IMG/VR virus record: IMGVR_UViG_3300009709_000022
Coordinates: 1-64,000 of that record
DNA length: 64,000 nucleotides
Direction: 5' to 3' (one strand)
Source of the DNA: a virus
Below the pieces are notes generated by a model that saw only the letters and a list, made by a program, of their open reading frames with translations, was not told the DNA's origin and did not search any database. Shown here piece after piece: positions 162 to 30,450 of this stretch (the first letter of the stretch is position 1; every line of letters starts with the position of its first letter). Made by a program: the position numbers and the translations under genes.

Positions 162-250
162 GGAGGGTGCCGAGCACGGTGCTCAAACGGTCCTGAAAAC
201 CGCGGTCTGTACGCGAGTGCAGAATGGTTCAATTCCGTCACCCTCTTCCA
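162..250 (+). tRNA. tRNA-Ser(TGA) with C33
   Basis: Acceptor GGAGGGT/ACCCTCT, loop CC-TGA-AA, long V arm, CCA. Confidence 0.85.
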
Positions 251-253
251 CAT

Positions 254-338
254 GGACGCGCGGGCAAAAGGTCGCCCACCCAGTCTGTAAAACTGGGGCC
301 TCACGGCACTGAAGGTTCGACTCCTTCCGCGTCCACCA
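254..338 (+). tRNA. tRNA-Tyr(GTA)
   Basis: CCAGT-CTGTAAA-ACTGG arm, V arm, ACCA. Confidence 0.95.
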
Positions 339-381
339 TTTTTCTGTTGCATCCATGCTTGCACTCGTGAGAGATTGTTTT

Positions 382-459
382 TGCGCGGTAGAGCAGTCCG
401 GTTAGCTCGCGTGGCTCATAACCACGAGGTCGGGGGTTCGAATCCCTCCTGCGCAACCA
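382..459 (+). tRNA. tRNA-Met(CAT), initiator-like
   Basis: CGTGG-CTCATAA-CCACG; fMet-type D arm GAGCAGTCCGGTTAGCTC; only two G-C pairs at stem base and a U1-A72 pair. Confidence 0.88.
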
Positions 460-461
460 TT

Positions 462-957
462 GAAGTTCGTATCCGGGAATCAGAGAAATCTGTTGGGTGC
501 GCGCAACACAAGGCCTCTTCGAGAAAGTCCTGTGTGCCCTGGGGGTACTGAAGCCATATATCTCCCGTAGGTGGCTTCTGCGAGTCCGTCGTAACAAGGT
601 CAGCAACCGTAATATCTGCCAAAACGGACCACCGGTGACAGCTCGGAGAGACGAGCAGACATTGAGATACCACACGAGAGGGTGAAAGGAATCTCTGCTG
701 TTGTACGGTGTGTCGCTCCTAAGAGGCCAACGGTAAGGGAGCCAGCTCTACGATCAGACAACGGTTGGGCGGCAACAGAGATGCAGTTCCGAGTATCCCG
801 TATTCAGAGAGCCGGATGGGCACCGGCGTAAGCGAAGGCAAGCCGCGCCAGCGGTGATGGCAGACAGAACCGATCGATTGAGCCAGGGTATATTCCACCC
901 TGATCGGTGCCGCCGAGCAACCAAAGTCCGAGCGAGCCCGGCGCTATATCCGGGCAA
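462..957 (+). ncRNA. Large structured ncRNA, GOLLD-like candidate
   Basis: No credible ORF; helices 550-557/571-578, 584-589/624-629, 691-702/771-782, 869-876/901-908, 936-941/950-955; lies inside a tRNA array. Confidence 0.5.
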
Positions 958-979
958 AACTTTTTGCGAGGACGAAACC

Positions 980-1246
980 GTGGAAAAGACAGTTGAAGAT
1001 CGGGTAAGCGAAATACTTTTCGAGCAGATGCATGGTGGCGCTCTGACTTACAACTCGGACGAAATCAAGCCAGAATCTAGTCTTGCCGAAGATTTGGGGT
1101 TCGACTCGCTCGACCTGGTAGAGACCGTGATGACGCTTGAAGAGCAGTTCGACATCACGATCACCGACGAAGAAGCGGAAGCTGTTTCAGACAAAACCTT
1201 CGCGGATGTTGTTACTCTGGTGAAGAAAAAGCTGGAGGAGAAGTAG
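980..1246 (+). CDS. acpP: Acyl carrier protein
   Basis: LGFDSLDLVE phosphopantetheine-attachment motif, acidic, LEEQFDITI; GTG start after GAGGA. Confidence 0.9.
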   Translation: MEKTVEDRVSEILFEQMHGGALTYNSDEIKPESSLAEDLGFDSLDLVETVMTLEEQFDITITDEEAEAVSDKTFADVVTLVKKKLEEK

Positions 1247-1248
1247 CC

Positions 1249-1524
1249 ATGGCAGATCCGACGATTCCGGACGTAGAAGATAAAGAGCTTCCGCTGTACG
1301 TGTGCCACAAGGAAGTGCGCGCGCTGAAAATTGCCCGCGTCGAATACTTGAGCATGTCACTGGTGCGTGTCTACTTCGAAGATGATTCGTTTGGATTCCG
1401 CGACTATGCCACGGAGAACCGTCCTGTTCCGCAGGCCGGCTACTACTACGTGGAGTATTCGAACGGCTACTACAGTTCTTCGCCGGCGGAAGAGTTCGAA
1501 GACGGTTACACGTTGAAGCAGTAA
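1249..1524 (+). CDS. Conserved small phage protein
   Basis: YxCHKEVRALKI and GYYxxSPAEEFEDGY motifs recalled from phage proteins; RBS GGAGGAG. Confidence 0.7.
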   Translation: MADPTIPDVEDKELPLYVCHKEVRALKIARVEYLSMSLVRVYFEDDSFGFRDYATENRPVPQAGYYYVEYSNGYYSSSPAEEFEDGYTLKQ

Positions 1525-1535
1525 GCCATCAAGAT

Positions 1536-1673
1536 GGCGCCGCGCAGGCCGATCCAATCGGTCTAGTGGCGCCCCGGAAACGTTGAGCCTGGGTGATGCC
1601 AGCACGGAAGGATAGGCGCAAGCCGAAAGGAGTGGGGGCGCAGAGGAACCCCTTCCATCCGCCTCAACGTTTC
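1536..1673 (+). ncRNA. Candidate structured RNA upstream of tRNA-Asp
   Basis: 11-bp stem 1577-1587/1663-1673 enclosing 1606-1611/1651-1656 and a GCAA tetraloop hairpin; separate hairpin 1536-1573. Confidence 0.4.
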
Positions 1674-1679
1674 ACCCTC

Positions 1680-1753
1680 GGTCCCGTCGTTCAGTGGCAG
1701 GACGCTTGATTGTCTATCAGGCTACCGGAGTTCGATTCTCCGCGGGACCGCCA
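1680..1753 (+). tRNA. tRNA-Asp(GTC)
   Basis: GGTCCCG/CGGGACC acceptor, loop TT-GTC-TA, GCCA. Confidence 0.92.
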
Positions 1754-1774
1754 AAGATTTGCGAGGACGACGCA

Positions 1775-1945
1775 ATGGACCTATACGCGAGAAAAGCTGA
1801 AGACGGCAGTTGCTGGCTTGTTCTGAAGAGAGTTTTCGGCCCGAGCAGTGAGGGCTGGAAAGAGCGATTTCCCCGGTGGGAAGAAGTTGTTGGTATGGGC
1901 TCTACTCGGAAACAAGCATTTGCCGATGCTGAGGCGCGCGCATGA
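1775..1945 (+). CDS. Small hypothetical protein
   Basis: ATG after GCGAGGACGA motif; overlaps next gene (ATGA). Confidence 0.6.
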   Translation: MDLYARKAEDGSCWLVLKRVFGPSSEGWKERFPRWEEVVGMGSTRKQAFADAEARA

Positions 1946-2208
1946 GTAACTGGGGAACAGTAGAGACGTGGAGCGAAGACAAGAGCGAGACTATCGCGCT
2001 TGATGTCGTTCCTGTTTTGGAGTTCAACGGTGAAGTGTTCATGTCGGCCGCGCATGAAAAGGGTGAGCTTTGCCAATGCAAGCCACTTGGTATGAAGAAC
2101 GACCAAGGAATCCAGATGTGGATTCACAACGACCCCGAACATCCAGGTTCAAACGAACGCATCGCCACTGGCGATTACGAAGGAGTGCATCATGGCCGGA
2201 TTCAGTAA
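1942..2208 (+). CDS. Hypothetical protein
   Basis: Coupled ORF in operon. Confidence 0.6.
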   Translation: MSNWGTVETWSEDKSETIALDVVPVLEFNGEVFMSAAHEKGELCQCKPLGMKNDQGIQMWIHNDPEHPGSNERIATGDYEGVHHGRIQ

Positions 2209-2410
2209 AGAAGACATTGAAGAGTTGTTCACGTATCACGCACCAAAGGATGATCAGCCACAGCGATACCAGGCCATTCGTGATGCTGCCAAGCAGTTTG
2301 CGCTCGTGTTGATTGCAAACACGAAGCCGAGCGCGGACCAGTCATCCGCTGTTCGCCATCTTCGCGATTGTGTGATGACTGCCAATGCCTCGATCGCGCT
2401 GGAGAAGTAG
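2192..2410 (+). CDS. Acb2/Tad1-hairpin-like protein (putative immune-signal sponge)
   Basis: FTYHAP...RYQAIR.AAK...S.D.S.A...L...VM.ANASIA pattern, recalled family resemblance; RBS AAGGAG. Confidence 0.6.
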   Translation: MAGFSKEDIEELFTYHAPKDDQPQRYQAIRDAAKQFALVLIANTKPSADQSSAVRHLRDCVMTANASIALEK

Positions 2411-2412
2411 CC

Positions 2413-2565
2413 ATGGAGAAGACCTACCAAGTTAAGGCTTTCACTTCGTGCCGTGACATGGAAGATTGGCTCAACGAAAACGCGACTGAATATGAACCCA
2501 TCAGCATTGCAGACGCCGACCGCTATGTCACTGTGTTGGTGAAGCGCATCATCAAGCCGAGTTAG
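2413..2565 (+). CDS. Small hypothetical protein
   Basis: RBS GGAGAAG, tight operon spacing. Confidence 0.55.
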   Translation: MEKTYQVKAFTSCRDMEDWLNENATEYEPISIADADRYVTVLVKRIIKPS

Positions 2566-2566
2566 C

Positions 2567-3082
2567 ATGGCGAAGATCGTCACCTATCCGAGCGACATCC
2601 TGAAGACGAACTGCACGCCGGTAGAACCCGGCAGCAGTGTCGCTCACCATCTGCAGCGCGAGCTTCGTGCCACCATGCACGCCGGCCGCGCTCAGGGGAT
2701 CGGCCTGGCAGCGCCGCAGATTGGCATTACGCTGCGCGCGTTCGCCATGGATACGCGATTCCTGAAGTTGAAGTGCCCCGACGTGTTCTTTAATCCTGAA
2801 GTGATCGAAGAGAGCCCAGAGGTGGACGTAGAGGAAGAATCTTGTCTCAGCTTTCCGCCCAAAGTGAAAGTGCGTGTACAGCGCAGGAAGCGTGTGCGGG
2901 TCAAGGCGTGTGATGTGAACGGCAAGGATTTCGAGATTGATTTGGTCGGGCTCGCCGCGCGTTGCGCGCTGCATGAGATCGACCACCTGAACGGCAAAAC
3001 AATCCTTGACCACGCGGGGAAGAAAGAAAAAAATCGCATCCTTGGTGAAATTGCGGTTGACATCAAGCGTGGGCGCAAGTAG
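2567..3082 (+). CDS. def: Peptide deformylase
   Basis: GIGLAAPQIG, ESCLS, HEIDHLNG motifs. Confidence 0.95.
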   Translation: MAKIVTYPSDILKTNCTPVEPGSSVAHHLQRELRATMHAGRAQGIGLAAPQIGITLRAFAMDTRFLKLKCPDVFFNPEVIEESPEVDVEEESCLSFPPKVKVRVQRRKRVRVKACDVNGKDFEIDLVGLAARCALHEIDHLNGKTILDHAGKKEKNRILGEIAVDIKRGRK

Positions 3083-3085
3083 ATT
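3057..3085 (+). promoter_or_regulatory. Sigma70-type promoter for tRNA operon 2
   Basis: TTGACA (3057-3062), 17 bp, TAGATT (3080-3085). Confidence 0.8.
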
Positions 3086-3095
3086 CGAAATCGTT

Positions 3096-3167
3096 ATGAA
3101 GATGTCGATGACACATACGTTTACCAATCGCGCCGCGGCACAACCGCGCCAGGGTATCCGCATGTAA
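3096..3167 (+). CDS. Attenuator leader peptide 1 (MKMSMTHTFTNRAAAQPRQGIRM)
   Basis: 23-codon ORF just after the promoter; codons 6-20 are all read by downstream-cluster tRNAs. Confidence 0.75.
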   Translation: MKMSMTHTFTNRAAAQPRQGIRM

Positions 3168-3238
3168 GCGCCAGATCTTCTCCAGGTAAAACCAGAGAGG
3201 CCCCCCGGCGCTAACCAGCCCAGGGGGCCATAGTTTTT
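3167..3238 (+). terminator. Attenuator 1 (antiterminator/terminator)
   Basis: Terminator GGCCCCC 3199-3205/GGGGGCC 3223-3229 with T-run 3234-3238; competing helix 3167-3172/3207-3212 plus 3177-3182/3195-3200. Confidence 0.6.
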
Positions 3239-3244
3239 GCACGA

Positions 3245-3319
3245 TGTTCGGTAGCTCAATGGAAGAGCGCGGAGCTGTTAACTCCGGAGATGTGGGTTCG
3301 ACCCCCACCTGAACAGCCA
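3245..3319 (+). tRNA. tRNA-Asn(GTT)
   Basis: CGGAG-CTGTTAA-CTCCG, GCCA. Confidence 0.93.
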
Positions 3320-3325
3320 GTTTGA

Positions 3326-3402
3326 TGGGAAGTAGTTCAAGTAGGCAGAACGCTGCGCTCTGGACGCAGAGGTTGAAGGTTCGAGGCCTTCCTTCCCATC
3401 CA
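3326..3402 (+). tRNA. tRNA-Gln(CTG)
   Basis: CTGCG-CTCTGGA-CGCAG, U1-A72, CCA. Confidence 0.92.
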
Positions 3403-3412
3403 CAAATTTTGA

Positions 3413-3486
3413 TCCGTGTTCGTTCAATGGTAGGACGGCGACCTTTGGAGTCACCTATCGGGGTTCGATTCCCTGACACGGATCCA
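3413..3486 (+). tRNA. tRNA-Gln(TTG)
   Basis: Loop CT-TTG-GA, acceptor TCCGTGT/ACACGGA, CCA. Confidence 0.9.
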
Positions 3487-3490
3487 GTTT

Positions 3491-3566
3491 GCGGGAATAG
3501 CTCAGTGGTATGAGCGTCGGCTTGCCAAGTCGAAGGCCGTGGGTTCGACCCCCACTTCCCGCTCCA
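3491..3566 (+). tRNA. tRNA-Gly(GCC)
   Basis: GCGGGAA start, loop TT-GCC-AA, TCCA. Confidence 0.95.
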
Positions 3567-3573
3567 CTTCAAC

Positions 3574-3649
3574 GCCGGTGTAGCTCAGTTGGAAGAGCAG
3601 CGCACTCGTAACGCGCAGGTCGCCGGTTCGATTCCGGCCGCCGGCTCCA
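3574..3649 (+). tRNA. tRNA-Thr(CGT)
   Basis: Loop CT-CGT-AA, canonical cloverleaf. Confidence 0.93.
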
Positions 3650-3673
3650 AAAGGAAGAGGAAGGAGGCAACGT

Positions 3674-4186
3674 GTGGGACGCATTCTTGAAGCTGCGGTG
3701 TTGGTTCTCAACGCATCGTACGAGCCTATTCACATCTGCGGCGCACGTCGTGCTCTTTCTCTTGTAGTGAAGGACACGGCGCATGTTGAGCATCACACGG
3801 GCCGCGAAGTCTATGCCGGGATCATGCTTCCGAGCGTTATCCGTTTGAAGCGGTACCGCAAGGTTCCGAATCGTGTGCAGGTGTTGACGCGGAAGAATGT
3901 GCTGATGCGCGACAACAACACCTGCCAGTATTGCGGCGTAGTGTTCGTGCCGTCTGAATTGACGCTTGACCACGTCATGCCGCGGTCTCGGGGTGGTATA
4001 TCGACGTGGGAGAACCTGGTCGCCGCGTGTGGCCCGTGCAATCGCGAGAAGGCGGATCGTACGCCAGAGGAGGCCTGCATGCCGCTTCTGCGGCGTCCCA
4101 GGCCTGTCACGCTACACACGGCGCGCGGGATCCTTCGTCAGCATGGTCATTCGATGGAGGCGTGGCGTCCGTACTTGTTCTTTTAA
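3674..4186 (+). CDS. HNH endonuclease (McrA-like)
   Basis: VLVLNASYEP, RDNNTCQYCG, TLDHVMPRSRGG, NLVAACGPCN; RBS AAGGAGG. Confidence 0.92.
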   Translation: MGRILEAAVLVLNASYEPIHICGARRALSLVVKDTAHVEHHTGREVYAGIMLPSVIRLKRYRKVPNRVQVLTRKNVLMRDNNTCQYCGVVFVPSELTLDHVMPRSRGGISTWENLVAACGPCNREKADRTPEEACMPLLRRPRPVTLHTARGILRQHGHSMEAWRPYLFF

Positions 4187-4262
4187 GCCGCTGGAGTTCG
4201 GGAGGTAGAACGCTCCCTTGGTATGGGAGAGGATTCGGGTTCGACGCCCGACAGCGGCTCCA
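4187..4262 (+). tRNA. tRNA-Thr(GGT)
   Basis: CTCCC-TTGGTAT-GGGAG; abuts HNH stop codon. Confidence 0.88.
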
Positions 4263-4269
4263 ACAATTC

Positions 4270-4345
4270 GCCCGGTTAGCTCATTCGGTAGAGCGCCTGT
4301 TTTGTACTCAGGAGGCGGCGGGATCATAGCCTGCACCGGGCTCCA
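4270..4345 (+). tRNA. tRNA-Thr(TGT), atypical T-loop
   Basis: Loop TT-TGT-AC; T-loop ATCATAG. Confidence 0.8.
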
Positions 4346-4351
4346 ACATGT

Positions 4352-4427
4352 GGAGGGTATGGCCGAGCGGCAGAGGCGCAGGTCTGTGGCACCTGAAACC
4401 GGAGTTCAAGTCTCCGTGCCCTCCCCA
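4352..4427 (+). tRNA. tRNA-His(GTG)
   Basis: CAGGT-CTGTGGC-ACCTG, encoded G-1:C73. Confidence 0.92.
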
Positions 4428-4447
4428 ATAAGTTCGTTGTAAGAAGT

Positions 4448-4522
4448 GGGCGCGTAGTGCTAGCGGGAACACATCCGGCCTGCAACCGGAAATTGAGGGT
4501 TCGACTCCCTCCGTGTCCACCA
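4448..4522 (+). tRNA. tRNA-Ala(TGC) with C33
   Basis: TCCGG-CCTGCAA-CCGGA; G3:U70 Ala identity pair; A73. Confidence 0.87.
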
Positions 4523-4528
4523 AGTTTT

Positions 4529-4604
4529 GGCTGAGTAGCTGATGAGGTCTTAGCGCCGCGCTGAAAACGCGGAGATGTCGGTTCGATACCGGCCTCAGCC
4601 ACCA
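4529..4604 (+). tRNA. tRNA-Phe(GAA)
   Basis: CCGCG-CTGAAAA-CGCGG, ACCA. Confidence 0.92.
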
Positions 4605-4609
4605 TAGTT

Positions 4610-4683
4610 CGGGGTATAGCTGGAGGGTCAAGCCTACGTCCTGGGAACGTAAGATGACAGTTCGATTCTGTCTACCCCGACCA
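4610..4683 (+). tRNA. tRNA-Pro(TGG) with C33
   Basis: C1-G72, A73, TACGT-CCTGGGA-ACGTA. Confidence 0.85.
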
Positions 4684-4687
4684 TCAT

Positions 4688-4765
4688 CCACCCGTCGCCC
4701 AACTGGATAGGGCACCGCGCTACGAACGCGGAATAGTGTAGGTTCGATCCCTACCGGGTGGACCA
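4688..4765 (+). tRNA. tRNA-Arg(ACG)
   Basis: CCGCG-CTACGAA-CGCGG, ACCA. Confidence 0.92.
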
Positions 4766-4779
4766 TTTACAATGCTTGC

Positions 4780-4965
4780 ATGAGCGAGCCAAAGTACAAC
4801 CTCATGAAAGAAGCACGCGACACGGTGAGTGGGTGGGCGGCAGTGGCGAAGAACCTCACGCTGAAAGCCGCTGAGGCGATGGCAGCTCGCCGCGAAGCAC
4901 TTACACCTTGGGCATTCCACCACAAGAATCCCGATCGCGTGTATCACTTGATTGAGCCGGTGTAA
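4780..4965 (+). CDS. Small hypothetical protein
   Basis: Fills the gap between tRNA clusters; start overlaps ATGCTTGCAT motif. Confidence 0.55.
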   Translation: MSEPKYNLMKEARDTVSGWAAVAKNLTLKAAEAMAARREALTPWAFHHKNPDRVYHLIEPV

Positions 4966-4971
4966 AAATAA

Positions 4972-5002
4972 TTGCGGCGAACAGCGGTTCCTGTGGTAAG
5001 TT
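4972..5002 (+). promoter_or_regulatory. Putative extended -10 promoter for tRNA operon 3
   Basis: TGnTAAGTT at 4994-5002, TTGCGG at 4972, AT-rich upstream. Confidence 0.5.
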
Positions 5003-5024
5003 CTTCAACAGCAGATACACGATC

Positions 5025-5099
5025 ATGAGGCAGATAACCAAAAACGTCGTCACCATTCAGATTCGCGGAAAGCGGATGTGGGAAGGTGCGCGTACTTAG
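5025..5099 (+). CDS. Attenuator leader peptide 2 (MRQITKNVVTIQIRGKRMWEGART)
   Basis: 24 codons including AGG, ATA, AAA, GTC, ATT, GGA, AAG, CGG, ATG, TGG, GAA, matching downstream tRNAs. Confidence 0.75.
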   Translation: MRQITKNVVTIQIRGKRMWEGART

Positions 5100-5167
5100 G
5101 GGTCTGTTTCACAAGCTCACTTGCGACAAGTGAACGGGCCCCTCCTAACCGGAGGGGCTTTGCTTTT
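5098..5167 (+). terminator. Attenuator 2 (antiterminator/terminator)
   Basis: Terminator GCCCCTCC-TAACC-GGAGGGGC-TTTGCTTTT (5138-5167); 11-bp antiterminator 5098-5108/5133-5143 overlapping the stop codon. Confidence 0.8.
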
Positions 5168-5179
5168 GGTCTTTGACAA
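5168..5179 (+). promoter_or_regulatory. boxA-like Nus antitermination element
   Basis: GGTCTTTGACAA resembles rrn boxA GCTCTTTAACAA. Confidence 0.45.
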
Positions 5180-5198
5180 TCGAATCGTATTCACCAAT

Positions 5199-5274
5199 GA
5201 GGGTGAAGTTCATGTGGAAGAACGCCGGTCTCCAAAACCGGATGCTGCCCGTTCGAACCGGGCCACCCTCGCCA
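5199..5274 (+). tRNA. tRNA-Trp(CCA)
   Basis: CCGGT-CTCCAAA-ACCGG, GCCA. Confidence 0.93.
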
Positions 5275-5275
5275 T

Positions 5276-5350
5276 CCCTCTTTAGCTCATCGGAAGAGCA
5301 ACCGGCTCATAACCGGTAGGCGCCAGGGTCAGCACCTGGAAGAGGGACCA
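5276..5350 (+). tRNA. tRNA(CAT), elongator Met or Ile2; atypical T-loop
   Basis: ACCGG-CTCATAA-CCGGT; T-loop GTCAGCA. Confidence 0.8.
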
Positions 5351-5352
5351 TC

Positions 5353-5438
5353 GCGTCCGTGGCAGAGAGGCTTATGCACCCGACTCTTAATCGGAGGGAG
5401 AGATCCCAACGTCGGTTCGAATCCGGCCGGACGCACCA
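5353..5438 (+). tRNA. tRNA-Lys(CTT) with long variable arm
   Basis: Loop CT-CTT-AA; V-arm GGGA-GAGA-TCCC; Leu-like D arm. Confidence 0.8.
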
Positions 5439-5444
5439 ATTTTC

Positions 5445-5521
5445 GGGATCGTCGCATAGAGGATAGCTGCACTCGCCTTTTAAGCGAAGAGACGTGAGTT
5501 CGAATCTCACCGGTCCCACCA
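5445..5521 (+). tRNA. tRNA-Lys(TTT)
   Basis: Loop CT-TTT-AA, ACCA. Confidence 0.9.
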
Positions 5522-5526
5522 TTTAT

Positions 5527-5602
5527 GCGCCTGTAGCTCAGAGGACAGAGCAGTGGACTTCTAAGCCAACGGCCGCTGGTTCGACTCCAGCCAGGCGCTC
5601 CA
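5527..5602 (+). tRNA. tRNA-Arg(TCT)
   Basis: Loop CT-TCT-AA (weak stem), canonical D and T arms. Confidence 0.87.
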
Positions 5603-5607
5603 GTTTT

Positions 5608-5681
5608 GGCGTGTTCGTTCAACGGTAGGACACCTGCTTTTCACGCAGAGAACACGGGTTCAACTCCCGTACACGCCCCCA
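5608..5681 (+). tRNA. tRNA-Glu(TTC)
   Basis: Loop TT-TTC-AC, GGCGTGT/ACACGCC. Confidence 0.9.
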
Positions 5682-5682
5682 T

Positions 5683-5758
5683 GACCCTGTAGCTCAGTGG
5701 AGAGAGCGGCCGGCTCCTACCCGGCAGGTCCCGCGTTCGAGTCGCGGCAGGGTCACCA
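5683..5758 (+). tRNA. tRNA-Arg(CCT)
   Basis: GCCGG-CTCCTAC-CCGGC. Confidence 0.9.
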
Positions 5759-5762
5759 ATTC

Positions 5763-5839
5763 GCGCGCGTAGCTCAGTGGACCAGAGCGATGCTCTCCGA
5801 AGGCATAGGCCGCAGGTTCAAGTCCTGCCGCGCGCACCA
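5763..5839 (+). tRNA. tRNA-Arg(CCG)
   Basis: ATGCT-CTCCGAA-GGCAT. Confidence 0.92.
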
Positions 5840-5844
5840 GTTTC

Positions 5845-5920
5845 GCCAGATTCGACAAGCGGCTAAGTCACTTGGCCTACACCCAAGCATCCGGGGGTTC
5901 GAGTCCCTCATCTGGCACCA
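5845..5920 (+). tRNA. tRNA-Val(TAC) with C33
   Basis: CTTGG-CCTACAC-CCAAG, A73. Confidence 0.87.
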
Positions 5921-5924
5921 AGTT

Positions 5925-6026
5925 CGCCCATTCGTCTGGCCGGCGGTTCGAGACCGCGCTGCGCACCCAACCGCGCAAACGGGTCCGGCTCCGAGTGGGG
6001 GTGGTTCGATTCCACCAGGGCGGCTA
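5925..6026 (+). ncRNA. tRNA-like element lacking a normal anticodon arm and CCA
   Basis: Perfect T arm GGTGG-TTCGATT-CCACC (6000-6016) and CGCCC/GGGCG acceptor-like stem; aberrant middle; ends GCTA. Confidence 0.45.
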
Positions 6027-6047
6027 ACGGCCGCTCGCGCAGGGTTT

Positions 6048-6121
6048 CCTCGCGTAGCTCAACGGAAGAGCTTCCGCTTGATAAGCGGCAGACAGTGGTT
6101 CAACTCCACTCGCGAGGACCA
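6048..6121 (+). tRNA. tRNA-Ile(GAT)
   Basis: Loop TT-GAT-AA, ACCA. Confidence 0.92.
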
Positions 6122-6168
6122 TCTCATGCAAGCATCGTGTATGCTGTCACAAAAGGAGGGCAACCTGC

Positions 6169-6378
6169 ATGCCCATTACGACACGACGGAAACGAAAGAC
6201 CACGCCGCGCAAGACTTCACTGAAGAAGATTGCAACTCTGATCATCATGCGCGACAGCATGACTGAGTTCGAGATCGCCGACGCGAAGAGAGGGTTCGCG
6301 AAGTCCGGGGTGAATCTGATTGTCATTCCTTACGGCAGTGGATCGTCTACGCCTCGTATTGAGGCTCAACCGTTTTAA
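6169..6378 (+). CDS. Small basic hypothetical protein
   Basis: RBS AAGGAGG; stop abuts tRNA-Gly. Confidence 0.6.
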   Translation: MPITTRRKRKTTPRKTSLKKIATLIIMRDSMTEFEIADAKRGFAKSGVNLIVIPYGSGSSTPRIEAQPF

Positions 6379-6454
6379 GCGAGCATCGTCCAATGGTTAG
6401 GGCCACAGCCTTCCAAGCTGTTGATGACCGGTTCGAGTCCGGCTGTTCGCTCCA
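6379..6454 (+). tRNA. tRNA-Gly(TCC)
   Basis: ACAGC-CTTCCAA-GCTGT, TCCA. Confidence 0.93.
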
Positions 6455-28542: not shown

Positions 28543-28701
28543 ATGCATCATCCAGCCCTGGACTCGTTCGCTCTTTGCGCGCTGCTGATCGTCGTAGCGT
28601 CGGTGGTCAGCTTCTTCGTTGGCAAGACCTTTGGGCGGAAAACAAAACAGCCCCGCGATAAGCAGGGCCGTTTTACACCGGAAGACCAATCAGTCGAATA
28701 G
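28543..28701 (+). CDS. Small TM protein (52 aa, below ORF-track cutoff)
   Basis: RBS AGGAGG; MHHPALDSFALCALLIVV...PRDKQGRF. Confidence 0.55.
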   Translation: MHHPALDSFALCALLIVVASVVSFFVGKTFGRKTKQPRDKQGRFTPEDQSVE

Positions 28702-30450
28702 AGCTTCAACCGCTTTGATGTGTCCGTCTGTGGTGACAAGCAGCTTTTGCGCGAGGCGTTGAATGTAGGCGTCTCGCGTGCTGCGCTTGAAGCCCAGCTT
28801 CTCCGTGATTTCGTCACGACTGACCCCACGCTGGCTGCGCGCCGCGAGCTGCAGAATCTTTGCCTCACCCTCTGGCAACTTCGGTATCCACCACGCCAAC
28901 AATGCGCGGCCGGTAGGCAACTTCTCGTACGATCCCAAGGCCTTCAGACCGGTGGTGGTGATCGTGATAGAGTTTCCCATCGCTCCATCGACGTAGCCTC
29001 TTTGTTTCAGTCTTTGGAGGTAAGCATCGCGCGTGCTGCGTTTAAAGCCGGTGTACGCGGTGATGGCGTTGCGCTCCAATGTTCCATGCTGCGCCAGCAC
29101 AATCAGAACGTCGCGCTCTCCCTTTGGGATAGATCCGTCACTGGGCTTTGCGCTGCGTTGCTCTTTGGCGGGGAAATGCACGGTCACACCTGGAGTGGAG
29201 TAGTCAGCGTCTACCTTGCGCTGTAGTTTCCCGTACGTGAGTTGTACGTCGTCAAGCGTTACCGGTGTGCCGATCATTGGCGGTTCCGCGTTGCTGAACA
29301 GGGCTGCCAGTTGGTTGACCAGTTCGCTTGCCTGTGCGAACACGTTCTCGAGCGCGGCACTGCGCGCCTCCTGTGCGGCAACATTCGCCGTCAGCGTCTC
29401 CATCTGCTCTTTGAGCATACGTACCGTCTCCTCGTCCAAAGCGGTTGTTGCCGGCGCCGCGGCAGTGCTGTTTGCTGCCGCCTCCAGCGCCCTGATGCGT
29501 TTCCGAAGCTCCCTCGGGTCGTCTTCCTTCGCACGCTCTATTGTCGCGGCCATGGTGTCGCGCAGATTCGAGATGTCAATGGGGGTCAGTGGGCGTGCCG
29601 CCAGTGGCGTCGAACCCACCTTGGGCGTGCTGCCGGCCGGGAACGTCCTCTTCTTGGCGATCAAGACCTCGCCGCTATACCGAAGCCATGCCGGGGACCA
29701 AACGTGCGCGTGGCCGCGCTGTAGGGCCGGCAGGAGCTTCTTCAGGTCGTCTGCGGCCTCACCTTTTTCTGACACCCAATCCGCAATGGCTTTGATCTCC
29801 TGCGGGCCGGTGAGTTGGAAGGCGAAAACGCACTCGGCCTGGTTGAGTGCTTTCTTGTTCACGTCCTGCGGACGCTGCGAAATCATGGACGCGCCGATGC
29901 CGTAGTTCCGCCCAAGGCGAATCATCCGCTGCATGACGTGCAGCATCCGGATCTCGTCTTTCTGCGGGTTCTGCGGGACGAATTCCTGGGCCTCTTCAAT
30001 GAAGACGTGAACAGGCGATGGCGAAGCTTTTTTGCGGAAGAAAAAGCGGTCTGCGAACGACGTTACGAACCGCGCCTTGTCTGCGTCGCTCTCAAACTGA
30101 GAAACGTCAATCACTGCACAGATGTTGCGATCAACAATGATGTCTGCAATGAGTGCTCCGCCTGTTGGCTCAATCGGCAAGTCTCCATGCAAGCCTCCGA
30201 AGATGGGGATATCGATTCCCTTGCCACCGTCTTCTCCGTCCAGGCGTAGACCGTACCAGATGCCAACCGGGTCCAACGCGATGAACTGATAATTGCGTGC
30301 GCTGTATTCCTCAGCCATCTTGGTGGCGCCGTACGTCTTGCCGCTGCCGCGCCGCCCGATCCATGCAAAGACTTCCGTGACGCCTTCCGGTGGAAGGCTT
30401 AGGGTTGCAGACACCGCCAAGTCGCCCGCGACGAGTAGTTCTTTTGCCAT
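28690..30450 (-). CDS. HerA/FtsK-like (DUF87) ATPase with coiled coil and two C-terminal wHTH repeats
   Basis: GRRGSGKT, VFIEEAQ, GRNYGIG..SQRP; GFKRSTRDAY.QRL twice. Confidence 0.85.
   Translation of the reverse strand: MAKELLVAGDLAVSATLSLPPEGVTEVFAWIGRRGSGKTYGATKMAEEYSARNYQFIALDPVGIWYGLRLDGEDGGKGIDIPIFGGLHGDLPIEPTGGALIADIIVDRNICAVIDVSQFESDADKARFVTSFADRFFFRKKASPSPVHVFIEEAQEFVPQNPQKDEIRMLHVMQRMIRLGRNYGIGASMISQRPQDVNKKALNQAECVFAFQLTGPQEIKAIADWVSEKGEAADDLKKLLPALQRGHAHVWSPAWLRYSGEVLIAKKRTFPAGSTPKVGSTPLAARPLTPIDISNLRDTMAATIERAKEDDPRELRKRIRALEAAANSTAAAPATTALDEETVRMLKEQMETLTANVAAQEARSAALENVFAQASELVNQLAALFSNAEPPMIGTPVTLDDVQLTYGKLQRKVDADYSTPGVTVHFPAKEQRSAKPSDGSIPKGERDVLIVLAQHGTLERNAITAYTGFKRSTRDAYLQRLKQRGYVDGAMGNSITITTTGLKALGSYEKLPTGRALLAWWIPKLPEGEAKILQLAARSQRGVSRDEITEKLGFKRSTRDAYIQRLAQKLLVTTDGHIKAVEALFD

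What the first reader, a model, noticed from the sequence alone, without database searches (positions are those of the whole stretch)
162..5920. C33 replaces U33 only in solo family-box U34 tRNAs
Seen: Ser(TGA), Ala(TGC), Pro(TGG) and Val(TAC) have loops starting CC-T, i.e. C33. Each is the only tRNA for its four-codon box in the window. Thr(TGT) and Gly(TCC), which have partner isoacceptors, keep U33, as do split-box Gln, Lys, Glu and Arg(TCT). The leaders probe non-A-ending codons of these boxes (GCC, GCG, CCG, GTC). Established: U33 is near-invariant and forms the anticodon U-turn. Inference: C33 may allow four-way wobble without host U34 modification, or evade anticodon nucleases.
Basis: partly seen in the sequence, partly recalled or inferred. 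Interest (0 to 1): 0.72.

Follow-up and report, generated by a model that had tools for sequence, protein, structure and literature searches.

The report
Phage tRNAs with C33 instead of U33
Four transfer RNAs of a peat-moss phage carry a C where almost every tRNA has a U, and in this phage and its relatives that change sits mostly in tRNAs that must read a whole four-codon box alone, which makes the role of this "invariant" base in codon reading directly testable.

Summary
Ser(UGA), Ala(UGC), Pro(UGG) and Val(UAC) have anticodon loops that start C32-C33-U34. The other 27 tRNAs of the complete 96.5-kb phage genome keep U33. One exception lay outside the window: Leu(UAG) is also the only tRNA for its box and keeps U33.

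I found 13 related tRNA arrays, recognised by shared tRNA order and an embedded HNH gene. They include the cultured Acidobacteria phage Tunturi_5 and an island in an Acidobacteriaceae genome.
- C33 occurs in 15/31 sole U34 family-box tRNAs.
- It occurs in 5/33 U34 family-box tRNAs that have partner isoacceptors.
- It occurs in 14/281 other tRNAs.

The C33 genes are functional: the cloverleaf is kept through compensatory changes. Host tRNAs have U33.

Three results weaken a special role:
- This clade departs from every "invariant" tRNA position at 7-14%.
- C33 makes up 3-5% of viral tRNAs in two samples chosen without regard to position 33.
- C33 is the usual state of chromosomal tRNA-Val(GAC) in many Actinomycetota.

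Best reading: C33 is a tolerated, possibly favoured, loosening of the U-turn where third-base discrimination is not needed. Nuclease evasion has no support. Decoding breadth itself was not tested.

The scan has other notes on this genome. I saw none on C33.

The parts
162..250 (+). tRNA-Ser(UGA), type II. Loop CCTGAAA at 192-198, C33 at 193. It also has G1-U72, G8 and a T-stem mismatch, so it is the least canonical of the four.
   Evidence: 37 bits, aligned with C in the U33 column; ARAGORN at lowered threshold. The orthologue in L396 also has CCTGAAA.
4448..4522 (+). tRNA-Ala(UGC). Loop CCTGCAA at 4479-4485, C33 at 4480. G3:U70 is present.
   Evidence: (50.1 bits). Orthologues of the same sequence type in L400 and L409 also have C33. 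C47, L396 and Tunturi_5 have U33.
4610..4683 (+). tRNA-Pro(UGG). Loop CCTGGGA at 4640-4646, C33 at 4641.
   Evidence: (50.7 bits). In 11 orthologues, 18 of 20 pairs keep pairing through double changes. Host and Tunturi_5 have UU at positions 32-33.
5845..5920 (+). tRNA-Val(UAC). Loop CCTACAC at 5876-5882, C33 at 5877.
   Evidence: (53 bits). C33 is kept in 6 of 8 orthologues although every stem has been replaced; 20 of 21 pairs are compensated.
4270..4345 (+). tRNA-Thr(UGU), loop TTTGTAC. A U33 comparison tRNA that has partners Thr(CGU) and Thr(GGU).
   Evidence: The orthologue in the closest relative has C33 (CCTGTAC).
6379..6454 (+). tRNA-Gly(UCC), loop CTTCCAA. A U33 comparison tRNA with partner Gly(GCC).
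3245..6454 (+). tRNA clusters 2 and 3 with an embedded HNH endonuclease gene (3674-4186). This module is shared in the same order with Tunturi_5, the Acidobacteriaceae island and viral contigs L396-L409.
3096..3167 (+). Short leader ORF before cluster 2. It holds Ala codons GCC, GCG and GCA, Pro CCG and Ser TCG.
   Evidence: from the sequence. Its role as an attenuator was not examined here.
5025..5099 (+). Short leader ORF before cluster 3. It holds Val GTC twice and Ala GCG.
   Evidence: from the sequence. Its role was not examined here.

Best explanation
The four genes encode working elongator tRNAs in which U33, the base that makes the anticodon U-turn, has become C.

The phage belongs to a clade of peat and soil phages, probably of Acidobacteriaceae. 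Their tRNA arrays have drifted far from the canonical tRNA. Their hosts do not appear to make xo5U34.

The array of this phage has been cut down to one U34 tRNA for each of five four-codon boxes. Those tRNAs must read all four codons with a U34 that probably lacks the xo5U modification. All five carry C32, the known determinant of undiscriminating reading.

I infer that C33 removes the N3-H to phosphate-36 bond and so loosens the loop. I infer that this costs little, or helps, in a tRNA that need not tell third bases apart, and is selected against in tRNAs that must.

Shown: the pattern, its recurrence in relatives, the coupling with C32, and purifying selection on the genes. Inferred: the physical effect of C33, and that the tRNAs read four codons. 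Not decided: whether C33 is beneficial or merely harmless.
For: 1. Only the four named tRNAs have C33, out of 31.
2. Across 14 related arrays, C33 is in 15/31 sole U34 family-box tRNAs, 5/33 with partners and 14/281 others. Without this phage the counts are 11/26, 5/31 and 14/257.
3. Within single boxes the trend is the same: Pro 4/5 sole against 1/6 with partners, Ser 2/2 against 0/3, Ala 4/8 against 0/2.
4. C33 goes with C32: 16/19 against 10/28, p = 0.001. C32 is the published determinant of four-way reading by unmodified U34 (PMC6103715).
5. Val and Pro orthologues keep the cloverleaf through compensatory changes, and Val keeps C33 in 6 of 8.
6. The phage uses all four codons of each box, with A-ending codons at 8-27%. 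Its 31 tRNAs cover every sense codon except Cys only if the sole U34 tRNAs read four codons.
7. The TrhO domain is over cut-off in 0/31 genomes of the host family, TrhP-type peptidase U32 in 2/31, and CmoB was not found in G001.
8. C33 is functionally mild in yeast tRNALeu(GAG) (PMC13492127).
9. Non-U33 bases are nearly all C, not purines: 34 against 2 in the clade and 43 against 4 in the first blind sample.
Against: - Leu(UAG) is sole in 7 arrays and never has C33.
- 14 C33 tRNAs in the clade are G34, C34 or split-box tRNAs such as Phe, Ile, Tyr, Asp and Lys.
- The clade departs from all invariant positions at similar rates: U8 14%, G18G19 13%, C56 12%, U33 11%. General relaxed constraint alone explains much of the C33 load.
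- The counts are not phylogenetically independent. The arrays are mosaics, so the numbers of events are upper bounds.
- The loci cover about 6 kb on each side of the HNH gene, so isoacceptors elsewhere in those genomes would be missed.
- Known four-way readers have U33 (PMC11571807).
- Actinomycetota tRNAVal(GAC), a G34 tRNA, carries C33.
- A second blind viral sample shows no enrichment in family boxes.
Confidence: 0.45

Rival explanations
1. Plain relaxed constraint. Phage tRNAs in this clade are under weak purifying selection. C is the least harmful replacement of U33. The concentration in sole U34 family-box tRNAs comes from shared ancestry and from intrinsic tolerance of certain tRNAs (Val, Ala, Pro). 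It has nothing to do with decoding breadth.
For: - Every invariant position deviates at 7-14% in the clade, against about 1-7% in a more distant group of arrays.
- Viral tRNAs exceed cellular tRNAs at U8, G18G19, U33, T54 and A58 alike.
- Arrays that hold C33 have twice as many other deviations in their U33 tRNAs.
- Tunturi_5, with host-like tRNAs and many isoacceptors, has no C33. Array age therefore confounds the sole-isoacceptor effect.
- tRNAVal tolerates C33 in cellular genomes.
Against: - Within arrays that hold C33, sole U34 family-box tRNAs still carry it at 15/30, against 20/268 for all other tRNAs.
- Individual C33 tRNAs do not have more other deviations than U33 tRNAs: 6/43 against 86/847.
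- The coupling with C32 is not predicted.
- Val keeps C33 through complete turnover of its stems.
Confidence: 0.25
2. C33 is an evolved gain of function. It widens wobble reading directly, or it keeps a host enzyme from modifying U34. Either way one tRNA serves four codons.
For: - The same comparative pattern as the best explanation.
- A precedent that U33 is read by a U34-modifying enzyme: U33C stops Elongator's acetyl-CoA hydrolysis and mcm5U34 formation (PMC11096365).
- C33 was gained repeatedly in Ala, Pro and Thr(UGU): up to 4, 4 and 3 changes on the HNH tree.
Against: - The xo5U pathway was not found in the host family, so there may be no such modification to block.
- Four-way reading works with U33 (PMC11571807, PMC6103715).
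- Leu(UAG) never changes.
- About half of the sole Ala tRNAs, one Pro and one Val keep U33.
Confidence: 0.15
3. Escape from a host anticodon nuclease or other tRNA-targeting defence that reads or cuts at U33.
For: - The phage loops differ from the tRNAs of a likely host family member at exactly this base in Val and Ser, and at 32-33 in Pro.
- The general idea is published for phage tRNAs (PMC10264068).
- The related phage Tunturi_5 encodes an RtcB-type ligase and a CCA-adding enzyme next to its array, which hints at tRNA damage in these hosts.
- This phage has none of those repair genes.
- C33 clusters by lineage.
Against: - No nuclease was identified.
- A sole-isoacceptor link is not predicted.
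- The sets of C33 tRNAs differ between close relatives without a common target.
- One well-studied anticodon nuclease cuts a U33C stem-loop as well as wild type (PMC2275089).
- The same C33 array sits in a bacterial chromosome.
Confidence: 0.1
4. The C33 genes are decaying or inactive copies.
For: Ser(UGA) is weak: ARAGORN misses it, and it has G1-U72, G8 and a T-stem mismatch. Degenerate tRNA remnants lie at 5921-6047.
Against: Ala, Pro and Val score 50-53 bits, have encoded CCA ends and identity elements, and keep their stems through compensatory changes across relatives.
Confidence: 0.03

Closest known systems
Natural C33 tRNAs: eukaryotic initiator tRNAMet and yeast tRNALeu(GAG)
   Same: A cytidine replaces the U-turn uridine in a functional tRNA. 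In yeast tRNALeu(GAG), changing C33 to U33 has only a minor effect (PMC5041475, PMC13492127).
   Different: Those are single special cases in eukaryotes: an initiator, and a G34 tRNA with a competing isoacceptor. Here C33 recurs in several bacterial-type elongator tRNAs of one phage clade, mostly U34 tRNAs that are alone in their box.
Four-way ('superwobble') readers of Mycoplasma, organelles and L. casei tRNAVal(UAC)
   Same: One U34 tRNA per four-codon box, U34 without an xo5U modification, and C32 in the loop (PMC6103715, PMC11571807). The phage's five sole U34 tRNAs all have C32.
   Different: The known four-way readers keep U33. Whether the phage tRNAs read four codons, and whether their U34 is unmodified, is not shown.
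Phage tRNAs with anticodon-loop changes proposed to resist host tRNases
   Same: Phage-encoded copies differ from host tRNAs within the anticodon loop (PMC10264068).
   Different: That work does not mention position 33. No host nuclease is known here, and the pattern follows isoacceptor content rather than a nuclease target set.
U33 as a determinant for wobble-uridine modification by Elongator
   Same: It shows that a U34-modifying enzyme can depend on U33, and that U33C leaves U34 unmodified (PMC11096365).
   Different: It is a eukaryotic enzyme. The bacterial xo5U and mnm5U enzymes were not tested for this, and the xo5U genes were not found in the likely host family.
Chromosomal tRNAVal(GAC) with C33 in Actinomycetota
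   Same: It has C33 with a pyrimidine at 32 (loop TCGACAC) in a tRNA of the Val box, in 13 of 18 published genomes sampled.
   Different: It is a cellular G34 tRNA with partner isoacceptors. I found no paper describing it.

Membership tests
tRNA (Rfam RF00005, clan CL00001) | Cloverleaf that scores above the family's gathering score | tested here: met
   Ala 50.1, Pro 50.7 and Val 53 bits against a cut-off of 29. Ser(UGA) reaches only 37 bits, against the related tRNA-Sec model, which is below that model's cut-off.
tRNA (Rfam RF00005, clan CL00001) | Seven-base anticodon loop with U33 and a purine at 37 | tested here: not met
   The loop has seven bases and R37 is present, but position 33 is C in all four. 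This is the finding itself. All other features are met, so I still file them as tRNAs.
tRNA (Rfam RF00005, clan CL00001) | Stems kept by compensatory change among orthologues | tested here: met
   Val 20 of 21 pairs and Pro 18 of 20 pairs keep pairing where both sides changed.
Four-way (superwobble) U34 tRNA | Only isoacceptor of a four-codon box | tested here: met
   Whole-genome tRNA list.
Four-way (superwobble) U34 tRNA | C32 in the anticodon loop | tested here: met
   All five sole U34 tRNAs have C32. Thr(UGU), which has partners, has U32.
Four-way (superwobble) U34 tRNA | U34 without an xo5U-type modification | tested here: inconclusive
   Hydroxylase and CmoB genes were not found in G001 and were rare or absent in 31 genomes of its family. 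The true host and the tRNA's chemistry are unknown.
Four-way (superwobble) U34 tRNA | Reads all four codons on the ribosome | not testable with these tools
   Needs A-site binding or translation assays.
Nuclease-resistant phage tRNA | Loop differs from the host tRNA at the nuclease's site | tested here: inconclusive
   The loops differ from G001 tRNAs at 33 (Val, Ser) or at 32-33 (Pro), but no nuclease or cleavage site is known.
Nuclease-resistant phage tRNA | Resists cleavage that destroys the host tRNA | not testable with these tools
   Needs cleavage assays.

The most novel reading that the evidence does not exclude
Position 33 is a tunable decoding determinant. Together with C32, a U33-to-C change converts a U34 tRNA that lacks the xo5U modification into an efficient reader of all four codons of a box. 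This lets a phage cover all sense codons except Cys with about 31 tRNAs and translate independently of a host that lacks xo5U. The change has been gained repeatedly for that reason.
Probability: 0.2. Interest if true: 0.8.

Novelty: new variant of a known kind. Interest (0 to 1): 0.6.

Why it matters
U33 is taught as an invariant of elongator tRNAs, and its role in decoding rests mainly on mutant stem-loops. Here nature supplies matched C33 and U33 orthologues of the same tRNAs (Val, Pro, Ala, Ser, Thr) in related phage arrays. The pattern points at one variable: whether the tRNA must read a whole codon box alone. That gives a ready experimental series for asking what the U-turn uridine contributes to wobble discrimination and to U34 modification. 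It also bears on how small a self-sufficient tRNA set can be. Finally, it shows that non-U33 tRNAs are not rare in viral sequence data, nor in at least one bacterial phylum. This matters for tRNA gene finders: ARAGORN missed two of the tRNAs studied here.

Tried and rejected
- Relatives by the peptide deformylase protein in viral contigs: none. By a 585-aa helicase/terminase-like protein (28690-30447, minus strand) against cultured phages: one weak hit. By DNA of the array: only tRNA-level hits and Tunturi_5.
- A rule that C33 goes with a purine at 35. The first blind sample gave 31/427 against 12/466, and the pool of the first samples gave p = 4e-4. The replicate sample gave 8/261 against 8/287. 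I dropped it as a general rule.
- General enrichment in family boxes, and 'Val is the hot spot' in viral tRNAs. Seen but not replicated (Val(UAC) 0/11).
- Host mimicry: rejected. All 44 ARAGORN calls on the stretches fetched from G001 outside the island have U33, except one odd Glu-like call.
- Expression. A moss metatranscriptome holds contigs identical to ORF 1249-1524 and to the HNH gene, but none over the tRNAs. This says nothing about the tRNAs.
- tRNA repair genes in the phage (RtcB, CCA-adding enzyme, RNA ligase): none found.
- Counting independent C33 gains on the HNH tree. The counts are only upper bounds, because tRNA genes of different sequence types sit at the same place in different arrays.


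Full report
**What is there**

The window is the first 64 kb of a complete, 96,524-bp phage genome with terminal repeats. It was assembled from a moss metagenome.

ARAGORN finds 30 tRNA genes in the genome, 27 of them in the window. A 31st, Ser(UGA) at 162-250, is missed at default settings. It is found at a lowered threshold. cmscan aligns it as a type II tRNA.

I read the base before each anticodon. Ser(UGA), Ala(UGC), Pro(UGG) and Val(UAC) have loops CCTGAAA, CCTGCAA, CCTGGGA and CCTACAC, with C33 at 193, 4480, 4641 and 5877. All 27 others have U33. Each of the four is the only tRNA of its four-codon box in the whole genome.

It is also alone in its box and has U33. If four C33 fell at random among 31 tRNAs, they would all land in the five sole U34 family-box tRNAs with probability 1.6e-4.

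**Are the genes alive?**

Ala, Pro and Val score 50-53 bits against Rfam tRNA. They have encoded CCA ends, and Ala has G3:U70. In alignments with orthologues from related arrays, 20 of 21 pairs (Val) and 18 of 20 pairs (Pro) keep pairing where both sides changed. These genes are under selection for the cloverleaf. Ser(UGA) is the least canonical of the four: it has G1-U72, G8 and a T-stem mismatch.

**Relatives and host**

Protein and DNA searches against cultured phages gave almost nothing. Searches blind to position 33 did find relatives.

- One is a tRNA array with the same gene order as window 3245-6454, including the HNH gene between Thr(CGU) and Thr(GGU). It lies in a 167-kb contig of an Acidobacteriaceae MAG from a peatland. 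Only the array and HNH are shared, and the flanks are bacterial genes.
- The same order is seen in the cultured Acidobacteria phage Tunturi_5.
- It is also seen in about a dozen viral contigs found with an HNH alignment.

The 44 ARAGORN calls on the stretches fetched from that MAG outside the island all have U33, apart from one odd Glu-like call. Examples are Val(UAC) CTTACAC, Pro(UGG) TTTGGGA and Ser(UGA) CTTGAAA. C33 is therefore not copied from the host.

**The rule tested in relatives**

In the closest relative, C33 is in Pro(UGG) and Val(UAC), as here. It is also in Thr(UGU), which has partner isoacceptors, and in Phe(GAA) and Ile(GAU). Its sole Ala(UGC) has U33. Tunturi_5 keeps many isoacceptors and host-like tRNAs, and it has no C33.

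Counts over 14 arrays (345 tRNAs, 34 with C33):

| Class | All arrays | Without this phage |
|---|---|---|
| Sole U34 family-box tRNAs | 15/31 | 11/26 |
| U34 family-box tRNAs with a partner in the locus | 5/33 | 5/31 |
| All other tRNAs | 14/281 | 14/257 |

Without this phage, sole against partner gives p = 0.04, and sole against other gives p = 9e-7.

Within boxes: Pro 4/5 sole against 1/6 with partners, Ser 2/2 against 0/3, Ala 4/8 against 0/2, Val 5/6 against 1/2, and Leu(UAG) 0/7 against 0/2.

C33 goes with C32: 16/19 against 10/28.

These counts are not phylogenetically independent. On the HNH tree, C33 changes up to 4 times in Ala, 4 in Pro and 3 in Thr(UGU). However, tRNAs of different sequence types occupy the same slot in different arrays, so these are upper bounds. 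Each locus covers only about 6 kb on either side of HNH.

**How unusual is C33?**

- Viral tRNA arrays picked by a pattern blind to the anticodon loop: C33 in 43 of 893 tRNAs and 16 of 548 in a replicate.
- The same pattern on bacterial and archaeal genomes: 9 of 603, five of them in Acidobacteriota contigs that carry long, phage-like tRNA arrays.
- C33 clusters by array.

Viral tRNAs also exceed cellular ones at U8, G18G19, T54 and A58. In this phage's clade every invariant position deviates at 7-14%, with U33 at 11%. Much of the C33 load is thus part of a general departure from the canonical tRNA.

Two rules that the first sample suggested did not replicate: that C33 goes with a purine at 35, and that family boxes are enriched in general.

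Following a chromosomal Val(GAC) with C33, I sampled its phylum. The loop TCGACAC is present in 13 of 18 published genomes in which the gene was fetched. Four further genomes with the same state are unpublished (G002, G007, G024, G054), and I left them out of the count. I found no paper on this.

**Context for mechanism**

- The phage uses all four codons of every box.
- Its tRNA set covers all sense codons except Cys only if the five sole U34 tRNAs read four codons.
- All five have C32. C32 is the published determinant of undiscriminating reading by unmodified U34 (PMC6103715).
- Host and Tunturi_5 Pro(UGG), which have partners, have U32.
- Genes for the first step of xo5U34 synthesis were not found in the MAG. 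In 31 genomes of its family they were absent (TrhO domain) or rare (TrhP-type peptidase U32, 2/31). CmoB was not found in the MAG.

From the literature:
- C33 barely affects yeast tRNALeu(GAG) (PMC13492127).
- U33C abolishes U34 modification by Elongator (PMC11096365).
- One anticodon nuclease cuts a U33C stem-loop normally (PMC2275089).
- L. casei tRNAVal reads four codons with U33 (PMC11571807).
- The published proposal that phage tRNAs carry nuclease-escape loop mutations does not mention position 33.

**Verdict**

I favour, at about 0.45, the reading that C33 loosens the U-turn and persists where third-base discrimination is not needed. The lineage has generally relaxed tRNAs, and its hosts lack xo5U.

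Plain drift (0.25), an evolved gain of decoding breadth (0.15) and nuclease evasion (0.1) remain open. None of the functional claims could be tested here.

Noticed in passing
window 5353-5438: tRNA with anticodon CUU (Lys) that is 86 nt long, with a long variable arm and A73, so it has a class II body. The same odd gene (85 nt) sits at the same place in the Acidobacteriaceae island (L355 10429-10513). Its amino-acid identity (Lys or Leu) is unclear.
   Followed up: partly
window 5921-6047: Between Val(UAC) and Ile(GAU) lie two T-arm-like hairpins (GGCGGTTCGAGACCGCG and GGTGGTTCGATTCCACC) without a full cloverleaf. They are probably remnants of lost tRNA genes. ARAGORN at a low threshold calls a 97-nt 'Val(CAC)' there.
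   Followed up: partly
window 1680-1753, 4270-4345 and 5276-5350: Other departures from invariant tRNA bases in this phage. Asp(GUC) has U37 (loop TTGTCTA). Thr(UGU) has T-loop ATCATAG. One tRNA(CAU) has T-loop GTCAGCA.
   Followed up: partly
genome 96192-96268 (outside the window): A 77-nt tRNA with anticodon UAA (Leu) and no long variable arm. Its anticodon stem can also be drawn with a 6-base loop. An orthologue in L396 has C33 (CCTAAAA).
   Followed up: no
L476-L500 (genomes of the phylum of an Acidimicrobiia MAG): Chromosomal tRNA-Val(GAC) has C33 (loop TCGACAC) in 13 of 18 published genomes sampled. Two Ala(GGC) genes there have TCGGCAG. Four more genomes with C33 are unpublished and were left out. 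I found no paper on it.
   Followed up: partly
L355 5696-7084 (minus strand): A TROVE-domain (Ro60/Rsr-like) protein gene lies 1.4 kb upstream of the tRNA array island in the Acidobacteriaceae MAG. Such proteins bind tRNA-like Y RNAs.
   Followed up: no
L394 13219-14667 and 23846-25027: Tunturi_5 has a CCA-adding enzyme and an RtcB-type ligase beside its tRNA arrays. This phage has neither.
   Followed up: partly
L355 10335-10426: A 92-nt tRNA-like gene with anticodon UAU and C33 (CCTATAA) lies between Met and Lys(CUU) in the island. It has no counterpart called in the window.
   Followed up: no
window 1156-1519, 3727-3877 and 4046-4196: A moss metatranscriptome run holds contigs identical to these stretches (a small ORF and the HNH gene). 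This is a weak hint that the phage was active in that habitat.
   Followed up: partly
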